From Escherichia coli (GTDB lineage Bacteria; Pseudomonadota; Gammaproteobacteria; Enterobacterales; Enterobacteriaceae), in NCBI RefSeq assembly GCF_048403405.1, contig NZ_CP183129.1: a stretch of 64,000 nt of DNA; one strand, written 5' to 3'. Position numbers and translations under genes: made by a program. Below are positions 4,303-54,845 of this stretch, one piece after another. Below the pieces are notes generated by a model. The model saw only the letters and a list, made by a program, of their open reading frames with translations, was not told where the DNA came from and searched no databases. Every line of letters begins with the position of its first letter. The stretch's first letter is position 1.

Positions 4303-4611
4303 CGACCAAAAACCTCTTTGCGTCACATTTTTACAACAATTATGGCAGAGAAGAATAATGCCATTGGAATGAAGAGAGTAACGAATGATTAAACTGGCTA
4401 AACCGAATGACGAAAAATTCTGGAAAACAGCACGCAATTTCGTGAAGTGATTATTTTCGTCCCTAAGGAAACCTCATAGGATGCCTGCGGGTGCCTGAGA
4501 CTTTCTGTTTTCAGGCTAACCGGGAATCAGAAAGACGAAGGCCCCGACCGATATTTCTATCAACTGTACTGCACCCATTTTGTTGGACGATGAAATGGAA
4601 TAGCCCCTAAT

Positions 4612-5133
4612 ATGTCAAAGCCAAAATACCCTTTTGAAAAGCGCCTTGAAGTCGTGAATCACTACTTCACAACTGATGATGGTTACAGGATCATCTCGGC
4701 ACGTTTTGGTGTCCCCCGAACCCAGGTCAGGACATGGGTTGCCCTCTATGAAAAACATGGAGAAAAAGGTTTAATTCCCAAACCTAAAGGCGTTAGTGCT
4801 GATCCAGAGTTGCGTATTAAGGTCGTGAAAGCTGTGATCGAGCAGCACATGTCCCTTAATCAGGCTGCTGCTCACTTTATGCTTGCTGGTAGTGGTTCTG
4901 TAGCCAGGTGGCTGAAGGTCTATGAAGAGCGCGGAGAAGCTGGTTTACGCGCGCTCAAGATTGGCACCAAAAGAAACATTGCAATATCAGTTGATCCAGA
5001 AAAAGCGGCATCAGCATTGGAGCTGTCAAAAGACCGACGCATTGAGGATCTTGAAAGGCAAGTTCGATTTCTTGAAACGCGGCTTATGTATCTAAAAAAG
5101 CTGAAAGCCTTAGCTCATCCCACGAAAAAGTAA
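4612..5133 (+). CDS. insJ: IS150 OrfA (InsJ), HTH DNA-binding protein
   Basis: 173 aa MSKPKYPFEKRLEVVNHYF..., recognised as IS150 InsJ. Confidence 0.9.
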   Translation: MSKPKYPFEKRLEVVNHYFTTDDGYRIISARFGVPRTQVRTWVALYEKHGEKGLIPKPKGVSADPELRIKVVKAVIEQHMSLNQAAAHFMLAGSGSVARWLKVYEERGEAGLRALKIGTKRNIAISVDPEKAASALELSKDRRIEDLERQVRFLETRLMYLKKLKALAHPTKK

Positions 5134-6476: not shown

Positions 6477-6720
6477 ATAACCTCCATGGTTTATCGAATC
6501 TTATGTTCGATTTGAACGTTATACGCTGGTTTATTTTGATACCGTTGATGAGATCAAAGATCGGGCGAATTGATTAAAGATAAGCCAGATGGACGTATGG
6601 ATAAGGATTATGGTTTTATTTGTCATACAAATAAATATAATAGGCGCTTCCGATGTAGACCCGTATTCTTCGCCTGTACCACGGGTCGGTTTTAGTACAG
6701 GCGTTTTCTTTAAATATCCT

Positions 6721-49825: not shown

Positions 49826-52800
49826 ATGATTACTATTGACGGTAATGGCGCGGTTGCTTCGGTGGCGTTTCGCACCAGTGAAGTTATCGCCATCTACCCT
49901 ATTACCCCCAGTTCCACGATGGCAGAACAGGCTGATGCCTGGGCCGGAAACGGCTTGAAGAACGTTTGGGGAGACACACCACGCGTGGTTGAAATGCAGT
50001 CGGAAGCGGGTGCTATCGCTACCGTGCATGGCGCTTTGCAGACGGGTGCCCTTTCAACATCGTTTACGTCATCGCAGGGTTTGCTGCTGATGATCCCGAC
50101 GCTGTACAAACTGGCAGGCGAACTGACGCCATTTGTCCTGCATGTAGCGGCACGTACCGTTGCCACACATGCACTCTCTATTTTTGGCGATCATTCCGAC
50201 GTTATGGCGGTGCGCCAGACGGGTTGCGCGATGTTGTGTGCGGCTAACGTCCAGGAAGCGCAAGACTTTGCTCTCATTTCGCACATCGCAACGCTGAAGA
50301 GCCGCGTGCCATTTATTCATTTCTTTGATGGTTTCCGCACGTCCCACGAAATCAATAAAATTGTCCCGCTGGCCGATGACACTATTCTTGATCTCATGCC
50401 GCAGGCCGAAATTGATGCTCATCGCGCCCGGGCGCTCAACCCGGAACATCCGGTGATCCGCGGTACGTCCGCCAATCCTGACACTTATTTCCAGTCTCGC
50501 GAAGCCACCAACCCCTGGTACAACGCGGTCTATGACCATGTTGAGCAGGCGATGAATGATTTCGCTGCCGCGACAGGTCGTCAGTATCAGCCGTTTGAGT
50601 ATTACGGGCATCCGCAAGCTGAACGAGTGATTATCCTGATGGGCTCAGCCATTGGCACCTGTGAAGAAGTGGTTGATGAATTGCTAACCCGTGGCGAAAA
50701 AGTCGGCGTGCTGAAAATTCGCCTGTACCGCCCCTTCTCAGCCAAACACTTGCTACAAGCTCTGCCGGGATCCGTACGCAGCGTGGCGGTACTGGACAGA
50801 ACCAAAGAACCCGGTGCCCAGGCAGAACCGCTCTATCTGGATGTGATGACCGCACTGGCAGAAGCCTTTAATAATGGCGAGCGCGAAACCCTGCCCCGTG
50901 TCATTGGTGGGCGCTATGGTCTTTCATCCAAAGAATTTGGCCCGGACTGTGTACTGGCGGTATTTGCCGAGCTCAACGCGGCTAAACCGAAAGCGCGCTT
51001 TACGGTTGGTATTTACGATGATGTGACCAATCTGTCACTGCCGTTGCCGGAAAACACCCTGCCAAACTCGGCGAAACTGGAAGCCTTGTTTTATGGCCTT
51101 GGTAGTGATGGCAGCGTTTCCGCGACCAAAAACAATATCAAGATTATCGGTAATTCCACGCCGTGGTACGCACAGGGCTATTTTGTTTACGACTCCAAAA
51201 AGGCGGGCGGCCTGACAGTTTCTCACCTTCGCGTGAGCGAACAGCCGATTCGTTCCGCTTATCTCATTTCCCAGGCTGATTTTGTTGGCTGCCACCAGTT
51301 GCAGTTTATCGATAAATATCAGATGGCTGAGCGTTTAAAACCTGGCGGCATTTTCCTGCTCAACACGCCGTACAGCGCAGATGAAGTGTGGTCGCGCTTG
51401 CCGCAAGAAGTTCAGGCCGTGTTAAACCAGAAAAAAGCGCGCTTCTATGTGATTAACGCGGCGAAAATCGCCCGCGAATGTGGCCTGGCGGCCCGTATTA
51501 ATACCGTCATGCAGATGGCTTTTTTCCATCTGACGCAAATTCTGCCTGGCGATAGCGCCCTCGCAGAATTGCAGGGTGCGATTGCCAAAAGTTACAGTAG
51601 CAAAGGTCAGGATCTGGTGGAGCGCAACTGGCAGGCTCTGGCGCTGGCGCGTGAATCCGTAGAAGAAGTTCCGTTGCAGCCGGTTAATCCGCACAGCGCC
51701 AATCGACCGCCTGTGGTTTCCGATGCCGCTCCTGATTTCGTGAAAACCGTTACCGCGGCGATGCTCGCCGGGCTTGGTGATGCCCTCCCCGTTTCGGCGC
51801 TGCCGCCAGACGGCACCTGGCCGATGGGCACCACGCGCTGGGAAAAACGCAATATCGCCGAAGAGATCCCCATCTGGAAAGAGGAACTCTGTACCCAATG
51901 TAACCACTGCGTCGCTGCTTGCCCACACTCAGCTATTCGCGCAAAAGTGGTACCGCCTGAAGCGATGGAAAACGCCCCTGCCAGCCTGCATTCGCTGGAT
52001 GTGAAATCGCGTGATATGCGCGGGCAGAAATATGTCTTGCAGGTGGCTCCGGAAGATTGCACCGGTTGTAACCTGTGCGTCGAAGTTTGCCCGGCGAAAG
52101 ACCGTCAGAATCCAGAGATTAAAGCCATCAATATGATGTCTCGCCTGGAACATGTCGAAGAAGAGAAAATCAATTACGATTTCTTCCTCAACCTCCCAGA
52201 AATCGACCGTAGCAAACTGGAACGTATTGATATTCGTACATCGCAGCTGATTACACCGCTGTTTGAATATTCAGGTGCTTGCTCCGGTTGTGGCGAGACG
52301 CCGTATATTAAATTGCTGACTCAGCTCTATGGTGACCGGATGTTGATCGCTAACGCCACCGGCTGTTCTTCAATTTATGGCGGTAACCTGCCCTCTACAC
52401 CGTATACCACCGATGCCAACGGTCGTGGACCGGCATGGGCGAACTCGCTATTTGAAGATAACGCCGAATTTGGCCTTGGTTTCCGCCTGACGGTCGATCA
52501 ACACCGTGTCCGCGTGCTGCGTCTGCTGGATCAATTTGCCGATAAAATCCCGGCGGAATTACTAACTGCGTTGAAATCAGACGCCAAGCCAGAGGTTCGT
52601 CGTGAACAGGTTGCAGCTTTACGCCAGCAACTCAAAGATGTTGCCGAAGCACATGAACTGCTACGTGACGCAGATGCACTGGTAGAAAAATCAATCTGGC
52701 TGATTGGTGGCGACGGCTGGGCTTACGATATCGGCTTTGGCGGTCTGGATCATGTATTGAGTTTGACGGAAAACGTCAACATTCTGGTGCTGGATACGCA

Positions 52801-53350
52801 ATGCTATTCCAATACCGGTGGTCAGGCGTCAAAAGCGACACCGCTGGGTGCAGTAACTAAGTTTGGCGAGCACGGCAAACGTAAAGCGCGTAAAGATCTT
52901 GGCGTCAGTATGATGATGTACGGCCATGTTTATGTGGCGCAGATTTCTCTCGGCGCGCAGCTGAACCAGACGGTGAAAGCGATTCAGGAAGCGGAAGCGT
53001 ATCCGGGACCATCGCTGATCATCGCTTATAGCCCGTGTGAAGAGCATGGTTACGATCTGGCACTCAGTCACGACCAGATGCGCCAACTCACTGCCACCGG
53101 CTTCTGGCCGCTATATCGCTTCGATCCACGTCGAGCCGATGAAGGCAAACTGCCGCTGGCGCTGGATTCACGCCCGCCGTCAGAAGCACTGGAAGAAACG
53201 TTACTTCACGAGCAGCGTTTCCGTCGTCTGAATTCGCAGCAGCCAGAAGTGGCAGAACAGTTATGGAAAGATGCTGCAGCTGATTTGCAAAAACGCTATG
53301 ACTTCCTGGCACAAATGGCCGGAAAAGCGGAAAAAAGCAACACCGATTAA
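49826..53350 (+). CDS. ydbK: pyruvate:flavodoxin/ferredoxin oxidoreductase
   Basis: 1174 aa; two 4Fe-4S Cys motifs (CTQCNHCVAACP, CTGCNLCVEVCP). Confidence 0.95.
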   Translation: MITIDGNGAVASVAFRTSEVIAIYPITPSSTMAEQADAWAGNGLKNVWGDTPRVVEMQSEAGAIATVHGALQTGALSTSFTSSQGLLLMIPTLYKLAGELTPFVLHVAARTVATHALSIFGDHSDVMAVRQTGCAMLCAANVQEAQDFALISHIATLKSRVPFIHFFDGFRTSHEINKIVPLADDTILDLMPQAEIDAHRARALNPEHPVIRGTSANPDTYFQSREATNPWYNAVYDHVEQAMNDFAAATGRQYQPFEYYGHPQAERVIILMGSAIGTCEEVVDELLTRGEKVGVLKIRLYRPFSAKHLLQALPGSVRSVAVLDRTKEPGAQAEPLYLDVMTALAEAFNNGERETLPRVIGGRYGLSSKEFGPDCVLAVFAELNAAKPKARFTVGIYDDVTNLSLPLPENTLPNSAKLEALFYGLGSDGSVSATKNNIKIIGNSTPWYAQGYFVYDSKKAGGLTVSHLRVSEQPIRSAYLISQADFVGCHQLQFIDKYQMAERLKPGGIFLLNTPYSADEVWSRLPQEVQAVLNQKKARFYVINAAKIARECGLAARINTVMQMAFFHLTQILPGDSALAELQGAIAKSYSSKGQDLVERNWQALALARESVEEVPLQPVNPHSANRPPVVSDAAPDFVKTVTAAMLAGLGDALPVSALPPDGTWPMGTTRWEKRNIAEEIPIWKEELCTQCNHCVAACPHSAIRAKVVPPEAMENAPASLHSLDVKSRDMRGQKYVLQVAPEDCTGCNLCVEVCPAKDRQNPEIKAINMMSRLEHVEEEKINYDFFLNLPEIDRSKLERIDIRTSQLITPLFEYSGACSGCGETPYIKLLTQLYGDRMLIANATGCSSIYGGNLPSTPYTTDANGRGPAWANSLFEDNAEFGLGFRLTVDQHRVRVLRLLDQFADKIPAELLTALKSDAKPEVRREQVAALRQQLKDVAEAHELLRDADALVEKSIWLIGGDGWAYDIGFGGLDHVLSLTENVNILVLDTQCYSNTGGQASKATPLGAVTKFGEHGKRKARKDLGVSMMMYGHVYVAQISLGAQLNQTVKAIQEAEAYPGPSLIIAYSPCEEHGYDLALSHDQMRQLTATGFWPLYRFDPRRADEGKLPLALDSRPPSEALEETLLHEQRFRRLNSQQPEVAEQLWKDAAADLQKRYDFLAQMAGKAEKSNTD

Positions 53351-53378
53351 ATGCACTGGATAAGGATTATCCAATTCT

Positions 53379-53483
53379 AAAAAAAAGCCCGGACGACTGT
53401 TCGGGCTTGTCTCATTATTTGTTGGATAAACAGTAACAAGGGTCCAACAGAAAATAATCTTTGTGACAATAAAGGCATATAAC
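53379..53483 (-). ncRNA. micC: MicC small regulatory RNA (ompC/ompD repressor)
   Basis: minus-strand 5' GTTATATGCCTTTATTGTCACA... and 3' terminator AAGCCCGAACAGTCGTCCGGGCTT plus T-run match MicC as I recall it; divergent from ompN. Confidence 0.75.
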
Positions 53484-53711
53484 CCGCGAAGAATAACGCA
53501 TCACTATTTAAATGTATAATTTTTATTTTGTATATGTCGCCAATAATATATTCACCAAACTTATCATCATTTCCGTAGAATTATTTGATTAAGGTTTTAC
53601 TTAAGGCGTAACAAATGATATTTATCGGCTAACGGAACTTCTCCTTTAGGATGTTTTCACTCCCCAAAATGGGGATGAAAAGGCAAATAAAATAACTAAA
53701 GGATTTATTCA

Positions 53712-54845
53712 ATGAAAAGCAAAGTACTGGCATTTTTAATTCCTACCCTGCTCGCCGCAGGTGCTGCACATGCAGCCGAAGTTTATAATAAAGACGGCAA
53801 CAAATTAGATCTGTATGGCAAAGTTGATGGACTACATTATTTTTCTGATAATTCAGCGAAAGATGGCGACCAGAGCTATGCGCGTCTGGGTTTTAAAGGC
53901 GAAACCCAAATTAACGATCAACTTACTGGCTACGGTCAATGGGAATACAATATTCAGGCAAACAACACTGAATCCTCAAAAAACCAGTCATGGACCCGTC
54001 TGGCATTTGCCGGACTGAAATTTGCAGATTACGGTTCTTTCGATTACGGACGTAATTATGGCGTAATGTACGACATCGAAGGCTGGACCGATATGCTGCC
54101 TGAATTTGGCGGTGACTCTTATACCAATGCAGACAACTTTATGACTGGTCGTGCCAATGGCGTCGCGACTTATCGTAATACTGATTTCTTCGGTCTGGTA
54201 AATGGTCTGAACTTCGCGGTGCAGTATCAAGGTAACAACGAAGGTGCCAGTAATGGTCAGGAAGGCACCAACAACGGACGTGATGTTCGCCATGAAAACG
54301 GTGACGGCTGGGGTCTTTCCACAACATATGATTTAGGCATGGGCTTTAGCGCTGGTGCGGCATACACCTCTTCTGACCGCACCAATGACCAGGTTAACCA
54401 TACTGCGGCGGGTGGTGATAAAGCAGACGCGTGGACTGCTGGGCTAAAATACGATGCTAACAATATTTACCTGGCAACCATGTATTCAGAAACGCGTAAT
54501 ATGACCCCGTTTGGCGACAGCGATTATGCTGTTGCTAACAAAACCCAGAACTTTGAAGTTACTGCACAGTACCAGTTTGATTTTGGTCTGCGTCCGGCAG
54601 TCTCTTTCCTGATGTCTAAAGGCCGTGACCTGCACGCTGCCGGTGGTGCAGACAACCCGGCAGGTGTTGATGATAAAGATCTGGTTAAATACGCCGATGT
54701 TGGCGCGACTTACTATTTCAACAAAAATATGTCCACCTACGTTGACTATAAAATCAACCTGTTGGATGAAGATGACAGCTTCTACGCTGCCAACGGCATC
54801 TCTACCGATGATATTGTCGCTTTAGGTCTGGTTTATCAGTTCTAA
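53712..54845 (+). CDS. ompN: outer membrane porin N
   Basis: 377 aa general porin with signal peptide and C-terminal YQF. Confidence 0.9.

What the first reader, a model, noticed from the sequence alone, without database searches (positions are those of the whole stretch)
53351..53483. ydbK has no terminator of its own; the hairpin after it belongs to MicC
The only strong hairpin downstream of ydbK is followed by the U-run on the minus strand and is preceded there by a MicC-like 5' sequence. The MicC copy differs at several positions from the K-12 sequence as I remember it, which could shift its target-pairing region slightly.
Basis: partly seen in the sequence, partly recalled or inferred. 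Interest (0 to 1): 0.2.

Follow-up and report, generated by a model that had tools for sequence, protein, structure and literature searches.

The report
Known MicC sRNA, minority allele
This is the well-known E. coli small regulatory RNA gene micC, sitting where it always sits between ydbK (nifJ) and ompN, in a less common sequence version whose target-binding end is unchanged, and its terminator hairpin is the only one available to the oncoming ydbK gene.

Summary
Window 53379-53483 (minus strand) is micC: Rfam MicC scores 105.7 bits against a threshold of 90 and covers the full model. It lies convergent with ydbK/nifJ (49826-53350, +) and divergent from ompN (53712-54845, +), as in K-12.

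Against K-12, the copy has 12 substitutions, a 5-nt loop deletion and one fewer tail U. All changes lie 3' of nucleotide 22. The 22-nt pairing end is identical, and so is the ompC leader in matching strains. The predicted duplex is the same for both alleles (-26.5 kcal/mol), so the suggested shift of the pairing region is not supported.

The variant is a real population allele, present in about 9% of 5,426 complete E. coli genomes. It forms a ~170-bp patch about 20% different from K-12, inside flanks that are 94-100% identical per 100 bp (mostly 97-100%).

The hairpin (53385-53408) is the only compact G+C-rich hairpin between ydbK and ompN. It is more stable on the ydbK strand (-16.9 vs -12.4 kcal/mol), but there it is followed by an interrupted U-tract, weaker than in K-12. 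It is best read as a shared terminator that is strong for MicC and leaky for ydbK. This fits published ydbK-ompN co-expression.

The element is already known and of low interest.

The parts
49826..53350 (+). ydbK / nifJ coding sequence (pyruvate:ferredoxin/flavodoxin oxidoreductase, 1174 aa), convergent with micC
   Evidence: ORF list. Annotated as nifJ in identical or near-identical RefSeq records.
53309..53309 (+). Position equivalent to a transcription start reported in K-12 for ompN mRNA (MG1655 1437301, 408 nt upstream of the ompN ATG, inside the 3' end of ydbK). A transcript from here must cross the hairpin and all of micC in antisense.
   Evidence: PMC7967276 text and Supplementary Table S1. 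The coordinate transfer is my own arithmetic. The 100 bp before the ydbK stop are identical to K-12. Not verified experimentally for this strain.
53357..53373 (.). AT-rich perfect palindrome TGGATAA-GGA-TTATCCA just after the ydbK stop. Not a terminator. Role unknown.
   Evidence: Inverted repeat I4. Retained in K-12 and three other Escherichia species-level lineages.
53379..53386 (-). U8 tail of MicC. Read on the plus strand it is the A8 tract preceding the hairpin.
   Evidence: Sequence. Tail score 5.22, reached by 0.01% of 15-mers in the window.
53385..53408 (.). Shared terminator hairpin: GCCCG(A/G)AC, 4-nt loop, GU(C/U)CGGGC, with an AA/UU extension
   Evidence: arms 53385-53394 and 53399-53408. 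(-12.4 kcal/mol on the MicC strand, -16.9 kcal/mol on the ydbK strand). Pairs invariant in 13 aligned MicC copies.
53409..53423 (+). U-rich but interrupted tract following the hairpin in the ydbK sense (the 15-nt scored tail UUGUCUCAUUAUUUG begins at the UU of 53407-53408). On the MicC strand the same bases are the A/U-rich stretch upstream of the terminator.
   Evidence: Tail score 2.63, versus 3.24 for K-12.
53420..53449 (-). MicC middle stem-loop: 7-bp stem (nt 35-41 with nt 58-64) and a 16-nt loop. The loop is 5 nt shorter than in K-12.
   Evidence: Consensus structure and pair counts. The K-12 G.U pair becomes A-U here. Three pairs show compensatory changes across species.
53462..53483 (-). 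MicC 5' target-pairing region (nt 1-22), identical to K-12
   Evidence: Duplex with the ompC leader is -26.5 kcal/mol, with 16 perfect pairs to leader positions -30 to -15.
53379..53483 (-). micC gene (105 nt counting all eight U)
   Evidence: Rfam RF00121, 105.7 bits, E = 1.7e-15.
53490..53528 (-). Inferred micC core promoter: -10 TATTCT (53490-53495), -35 TTATAC (53514-53519), and the conserved A-rich block AAATAAAAATTATAC (53514-53528)
   Evidence: Read from the sequence relative to +1. The block is nearly invariant in 17 copies from Escherichia, Salmonella, Citrobacter and Pseudocitrobacter. Promoter assignment is inference. The consensus scan did not report it.
53410..53580 (.). Divergent patch that defines this allele (MicC body plus promoter-upstream DNA). 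It is interrupted by the invariant seed and core promoter.
   Evidence: 84% and 80% identity to K-12 per 100 bp, versus 94-100% in the flanks. 22 of 96 and 17 of 61 alignment columns differ.
53712..54845 (+). ompN (quiescent porin), divergent from micC and on the same strand as ydbK

Best explanation
The element is micC, the Hfq-dependent small RNA that represses ompC translation. It pairs its 5' 22 nt with the ompC leader just upstream of the ribosome-binding site.

The window carries a minority E. coli allele. Its changes are confined to the spacer after the seed, the loop of the middle stem-loop, the A/U-rich stretch before the terminator, and the DNA upstream of the core promoter. The seed, the stem, the terminator and the core promoter are intact. 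The RNA should therefore work on ompC as in K-12.

Its terminator palindrome is also the only hairpin that RNA polymerase meets after ydbK. On that strand it is a stable hairpin with a poor U-tract. It most likely acts as a pause site and partial terminator. Some transcription then continues antisense through micC into ompN.

Shown: identity, anatomy, conservation, allele frequency, identical predicted pairing.
Inferred: promoter assignment, leaky termination for ydbK, any functional effect of the allele.
For: - Rfam MicC hit above gathering score over the full model. K-12 scores 125 with the same model.
- Same synteny as K-12 (PMC5745476).
- Seed nt 1-22 identical. ompC leader identical. Duplex is -26.5 kcal/mol for both alleles. 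PMC5745476 states that MicC acts through a conserved 22-bp duplex near the ompC start codon.
- The stem and terminator pairs are kept, with compensatory changes across 13 copies.
- The allele is found at 95% identity or more in 497 of 5,426 complete genomes.
- Hairpin energies on the two strands. Tail scores.
- Literature for plus-strand transcription across the hairpin: ydbK and ompN were reported co-expressed in an operon (Fabrega et al. 2012, as cited in PMC6176095). An ompN-sense start was reported inside the ydbK 3' end, with MicC fully antisense to that leader (PMC7967276).
- Shared hairpins between convergent genes are a described class of E. coli terminators (Ju et al. 2019, as summarised in bioRxiv 10.1101/2022.10.23.513370).
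Against: - No expression or 3'-end data exist for this strain.
- A K-12 Term-seq supplement (PMC7815308) and the supplements of a Term-seq analysis paper (PMC12207403) list no 3' end for micC or ydbK, so termination efficiency in either direction is not measured.
- The Fabrega 2012 paper itself could not be read. Only a secondary citation was seen.
- The plus-strand tail score of 2.63 is reached by 7% of 15-mers in this AT-rich spacer, so the U-richness alone is not beyond chance.
- Promoter hexamers match the consensus poorly, and the scan did not call them.
Confidence: 0.9

Rival explanations
1. The hairpin serves MicC only. ydbK transcription is not stopped in the spacer at all and runs on as a ydbK-ompN operon transcript. 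If it is stopped, it is by Rho or by collision with polymerases coming from micC.
For: Interrupted U-tract on the plus strand, with 4 U in the first 8. Reported ydbK-ompN co-expression. Collision-driven termination between convergent genes is described.
Against: The hairpin is more stable on the ydbK strand. It is preceded by an A-tract and followed by U-rich sequence, features that favour at least pausing or partial termination. In K-12 the tract is better (score 3.24).
Confidence: 0.3
2. The hairpin is an efficient two-way terminator, so ydbK does effectively have a terminator and ompN is transcribed only from its own promoter.
For: Palindromic G+C-rich stem flanked by A8 on one side and a U-rich tract on the other. 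Bidirectional terminators are common between convergent E. coli genes.
Against: The weak plus-strand U-tract in this allele. Literature reports of transcripts that span the spacer.
Confidence: 0.15
3. The variant micC is a decaying or functionally altered copy. Its many derived changes, and the ompC pseudogene in one matching strain, would mean relaxed selection. Alternatively the changed body gives it different Hfq binding, stability or extra targets.
For: 14 of 17 differing alignment columns in the MicC body are derived in this allele relative to three outgroup lineages. Rfam score drops from 125 to 105.7. Strain 4621, identical over 24 kb, has ompC annotated with an internal stop. Other E. 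coli have lost micC to IS1.
Against: Seed, core promoter block, stem pairing (G.U improved to A-U), terminator and U-tail are all intact. The allele is widespread and nearly uniform: 323 genomes at 99% or more. Strain 118UI with the same allele has an intact ompC.
Confidence: 0.1

Closest known systems
MicC sRNA of E. coli K-12 (Rfam RF00121; IS063; Chen et al. 2004)
   Same: Same locus between ydbK/nifJ and ompN. Identical 5' 22 nt, the same middle stem, an identical terminator hairpin, and the same conserved promoter block.
   Different: 12 substitutions, a 5-nt loop deletion, and U8 instead of U9. The promoter-upstream DNA differs at 22 of 96 alignment columns. The Rfam score is 105.7 instead of 125.
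Bidirectional (shared) terminators between convergent E. coli genes (Ju et al. 2019; Wang et al. preprint 10.1101/2022.10.23.513370)
   Same: One palindromic hairpin between two convergent transcription units, with an A-tract on one side that reads as the U-tract of the other strand.
   Different: Here one partner is an sRNA with a canonical strong intrinsic terminator. The other arm has only an interrupted U-tract, and the literature suggests read-through into ompN. No 3'-end data were available.
micF-ompC arrangement
   Same: An sRNA gene divergent from a porin gene, where the sRNA represses a different porin (PMC5745476).
   Different: micC additionally faces a convergent gene (ydbK) and overlaps a reported long ompN leader in antisense.

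Membership tests
MicC sRNA (Rfam RF00121) | Covariance-model score at or above the curated gathering threshold over the full model | tested here: met
   105.7 bits against 90, model positions 1-123 of 123, E = 1.7e-15.
MicC sRNA (Rfam RF00121) | Conserved single-stranded 5' end complementary to the ompC leader | tested here: met
   nt 1-22 identical to K-12. 16 perfect pairs with leader -30 to -15 plus 5 further pairs, -26.5 kcal/mol. Leader identical in strains carrying this allele.
MicC sRNA (Rfam RF00121) | Genomic position between ompN and ydbK/nifJ, divergent from ompN | tested here: met
   K-12 coordinates in PMC7967276 Table S1.
MicC sRNA (Rfam RF00121) | Middle stem-loop and Rho-independent terminator with an oligo-U tail (the Hfq-binding 3' end of class I sRNAs) | tested here: met
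   7-bp stem kept. Terminator pairs invariant, U8 tail. Hfq use of the 3' oligo-U is described for MicC in PMC4911921.
MicC sRNA (Rfam RF00121) | Expression as a ~109-nt RNA and Hfq-dependent repression of ompC | not testable with these tools
   Needs a northern blot or reporter assay in a strain with this allele.
Bidirectional intrinsic terminator | A single hairpin located between convergent transcription units | tested here: met
   ydbK stop at 53350 (+), MicC 3' end at 53379 (-), hairpin at 53385-53408.
Bidirectional intrinsic terminator | A stable hairpin followed by a U-tract on both strands | tested here: inconclusive
   Hairpin stable on both strands (-16.9 and -12.4 kcal/mol). U8 on the minus strand, but only an interrupted U-rich tract on the plus strand (score 2.63, reached by 7% of 15-mers in this spacer).
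Bidirectional intrinsic terminator | Coincident RNA 3' ends on both strands in vivo | not testable with these tools
   The supplements of two Term-seq papers that were searchable list nothing for micC or ydbK.

The most novel reading that the evidence does not exclude
The ~170-bp patch may be an old or imported second haplotype of the micC control region and RNA body, maintained in about 9% of E. coli. It would change how much MicC is made, or how it binds Hfq, without touching the seed. Its degraded ydbK-side U-tract would let more ydbK-driven transcription run antisense through micC into ompN. Oxidative-stress induction of ydbK would then be coupled to the MicC/OmpC/OmpN porin balance differently in these lineages.
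Probability: 0.08. Interest if true: 0.35.

Novelty: already known. Interest (0 to 1): 0.12.

Why it matters
It matters little beyond correct annotation. micC is not annotated in any of the RefSeq records looked at, so recognising it prevents the hairpin being misread as a ydbK terminator. The seed and the ompC target site are unchanged, so there is no reason to expect altered OmpC control.

The only mildly useful points for a specialist are these:
- E. coli carries two sharply different micC haplotypes that differ everywhere except in the functional blocks. This is a natural mutagenesis that marks which parts of the gene are constrained.
- The minority haplotype weakens the ydbK-side U-tract of the shared terminator. 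This could be tested for an effect on ydbK-ompN read-through.

Tried and rejected
- The consensus promoter/terminator scan found nothing in 53000-54000, not even the MicC terminator. I rejected it as uninformative and used folding instead.
- I looked for measured 3' ends of micC or ydbK in Term-seq supplements. PMC7815308 and PMC12207403 have no entries, and PMC9023263 has no supplements held.
- I tried to read the primary papers, Fabrega 2012 and Chen 2004. Neither is held.
- I tested whether the variant patch came from another species. Four other Escherichia species-level lineages are no closer to it than K-12 is, at 77-81% identity. All 13 metagenome contigs with the variant loop have E. 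coli-level ydbK flanks at 96.5-99.3%. No donor was found. The search required an exact 27-mer, so distant donors would be missed.
- I considered that nt 23-26 changes might extend or shorten the ompC duplex. Unconstrained duplex predictions beyond nt 22 involve implausible long-range pairs and ignore MicC's own structure, so only the 22-nt result was kept.
- I considered a sigma-54-like TGGCAC motif near the reported ompN-sense start. By my own reading of the sequence the spacing does not fit the consensus, so I dropped it.

Full report
**What is there**

The window is E. coli chromosome. Positions 40001-64000 are 100% identical to two complete genomes.

- The 1174-codon ORF at 49826-53350 (+) is ydbK, now annotated nifJ.
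- The ORF at 53712-54845 (+) is ompN.
- In the 361-nt spacer between them, Rfam's MicC model (RF00121) matches 53371-53486 on the minus strand. The score is 105.7 bits (gathering score 90), E = 1.7e-15, over the whole model.

Reading the minus strand gives the following anatomy:

- +1 G at 53483.
- The 5' sequence GUUAUAUGCCUUUAUUGUCACA (nt 1-22, 53483-53462).
- A U-rich spacer.
- A 7-bp stem with a 16-nt loop (53449-53420).
- An A/U-rich stretch.
- The terminator hairpin (53408-53385).
- A U8 tail (53386-53379).

The finding's coordinates therefore run exactly from the base after the ydbK stop to MicC +1. Its description of the hairpin, the U-run and the 5' sequence is correct.

**Comparison with K-12**

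Aligned with the K-12 derivative J53, MicC nt 1-22 are identical. The differences, in K-12 numbering, are:

- G23A, U25G and U26A, just after the seed.
- G41A, which turns the closing G.U pair of the middle stem into A-U.
- A 5-nt deletion and five substitutions in the loop.
- U70A, A75U and A76G in the A/U-rich stretch.
- One U fewer in the tail.

The K-12 copy scores 125 bits with the same model.

In a 13-sequence alignment (E. coli alleles, three other Escherichia lineages, Salmonella arizonae and diarizonae, and a Citrobacter MAG), the consensus structure keeps the middle stem and the terminator. Three stem pairs show compensatory double changes, and the terminator pairs are invariant. Upstream, the block AAATAAAAATTATAC (-45 to -31) and TATTCT (-12 to -7) are conserved from Escherichia to Pseudocitrobacter. 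I take these as the core promoter. That is an inference.

**Does the pairing region shift? No.**

- The ompC leader of strain 118UI, which is 100% identical to the window over 53300-53720, was located by walking the annotation.
- It is 100% identical to K-12 MG1655 over 130 nt. It is at least 99% identical in 5,359 of 5,371 genomes that have it.
- Strain 4621, identical to the window over 24 kb, has the same transcribed leader.
- RNAduplex gives the same interaction for both MicC alleles. MicC nt 1-16 pair perfectly with leader positions -30 to -15, and nt 17-21 pair across a bulge, for -26.5 kcal/mol.
- This matches the published description of a conserved 22-bp duplex near the ompC start codon (PMC5745476).

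**The allele in the population**

A 150-bp query covering micC finds the locus in 5,412 of 5,426 complete E. coli genomes. Of these, 393 match at 99% or more and 4,805 match at only 80-90%. A query restricted to the divergent patch finds 497 genomes at 95% or more. So about 9% of genomes carry this allele and most carry the K-12-like one.

The difference is sharply local. Per 100 bp, identity to K-12 is 84% and 80% at 53400-53599, against 94-100% (mostly 97-100%) on both sides. Within the patch, the window differs from K-12 at 22 of 96 promoter-upstream columns and 17 of 61 MicC-body columns. That is as far as K-12 is from E. whittamii. The seed differs at 0 of 22 columns, and the terminator with its downstream sequence at 2 of 55.

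Strain ECE204 has a recombinant gene, K-12-like at the 5' end and window-like just before the terminator.

Polarising with three outgroup lineages gives two patterns:

- The promoter-upstream differences split 11 window-like to 8 K-12-like.
- In the MicC body, 14 of 17 differing columns are derived in the window allele.

Thirteen metagenome contigs carrying the variant loop all have E. coli-level flanks, so no donor species was identified. The origin of the patch is unresolved. The candidates are import from an unsampled lineage, an old two-haplotype polymorphism, or fast local change. Whichever it is, the pattern of change everywhere except the seed, stem, terminator and core promoter is what purifying selection on a working sRNA gene would leave.

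**Whose terminator is it?**

The palindrome is transcribed from both sides.

| Feature | MicC strand (minus) | ydbK strand (plus) |
|---|---|---|
| Hairpin energy | -12.4 kcal/mol, with an A.C mismatch | -16.9 kcal/mol, the same position being a G.U pair |
| Sequence before the hairpin | A/U-rich stretch | A8 |
| Sequence after the hairpin | U8 | UUGUCUCAUUAUUUG |
| Tail score | 5.22, reached by 0.01% of 15-mers in the window | 2.63, reached by 2.4% of 15-mers in the window and 7% in this spacer |

In K-12 the ydbK-strand tract is UUGUCUUUUUAUAUG, with a score of 3.24. The A75U and A76G changes of this allele therefore degrade the ydbK-side U-tract.

No other compact G+C-rich hairpin, and no other hairpin followed by a U-run, exists in the spacer. 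But the shared hairpin has the layout of a bidirectional terminator, a class described for convergent E. coli genes. It is strong for MicC and weak for ydbK.

The literature fits leaky termination:

- ydbK and ompN were reported to be co-expressed as an operon under SoxS control (Fabrega et al. 2012, seen only through the citation in PMC6176095).
- A compilation of K-12 start sites lists an ompN-sense start 408 nt upstream of the ompN ATG. It notes that MicC is antisense to that leader over its whole length (PMC7967276). By my coordinate transfer that start corresponds to window position ~53309, inside the end of ydbK, in a stretch identical to K-12.
- No measured 3' ends for either gene were found in the searchable Term-seq supplements.

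**Verdict**

This is the known micC gene in its known place, in a minority but common E. coli allele. It is too absolute about ydbK, since the hairpin is shared and probably acts as a weak terminator or pause for ydbK. It is wrong in suggesting a shifted target-pairing region. Novelty: already known. Interest is low.

Noticed in passing
window 53410-53580: A ~170-bp patch (MicC body plus promoter-upstream DNA) is about 20% different from K-12, while the flanks differ by a few percent at most (0-6% per 100 bp). It is interrupted by a perfectly conserved seed and core promoter. It is present in about 9% of complete E. coli genomes. Its origin (import, old haplotype or fast local evolution) is unresolved.
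   Followed up: partly
window 53357-53373: A perfect 7-bp AT-rich palindrome, TGGATAA-GGA-TTATCCA, lies six bases after the ydbK stop. It is retained in K-12 and in three other Escherichia lineages although neighbouring bases vary. It could be a protein-binding site or a 3'-UTR hairpin.
   Followed up: no
window 53654-53681: A CCCC/GGGG hairpin lies about 30 nt upstream of the ompN start codon. Across Escherichia lineages the stem is kept while the loop varies. It may be a structural element of the ompN leader.
   Followed up: no
window 53309 (+): This is the position equivalent to a reported K-12 transcription start for a long ompN leader, inside the ydbK 3' end. The possible -10 is TATGAC at 53297-53302. 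A transcript from here either ends at the shared hairpin as a ~100-nt RNA or runs antisense through micC.
   Followed up: partly
window 4489-4641 (+), 6647-6710 (+), 58873-58996 (-), 59009-59126 (-): Other Rfam hits above gathering score in the window are sok antitoxin RNA, RydC, STnc490 and FnrS. STnc490 and FnrS lie only 12 nt apart in tandem.
   Followed up: no
L018 (E. coli GF31, NZ_CP172152.1): This strain has an IS1A element inserted in micC and a frameshifted ompN. The locus is therefore dispensable in at least some strains.
   Followed up: no
L021 and L022 (E. coli 4621, NZ_CP103479.1): This bloodstream isolate is 100% identical to window 40001-64000. Its ompC (internal stop), cirA (internal stop) and yejA (frameshift) are annotated as pseudogenes. 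MicC's main target may therefore be inactive in the source lineage. It is not known whether the window comes from this strain.
   Followed up: no
RefSeq records under hits H31-H142: None of the PGAP-annotated E. coli records inspected carries any feature for micC. The match is listed over 'none'.
   Followed up: no
L008, L011, L035: ompN has strongly divergent alleles, 78-86% identical to the window. One of these (L035) sits on a metagenome contig that carries the window-type micC.
   Followed up: no
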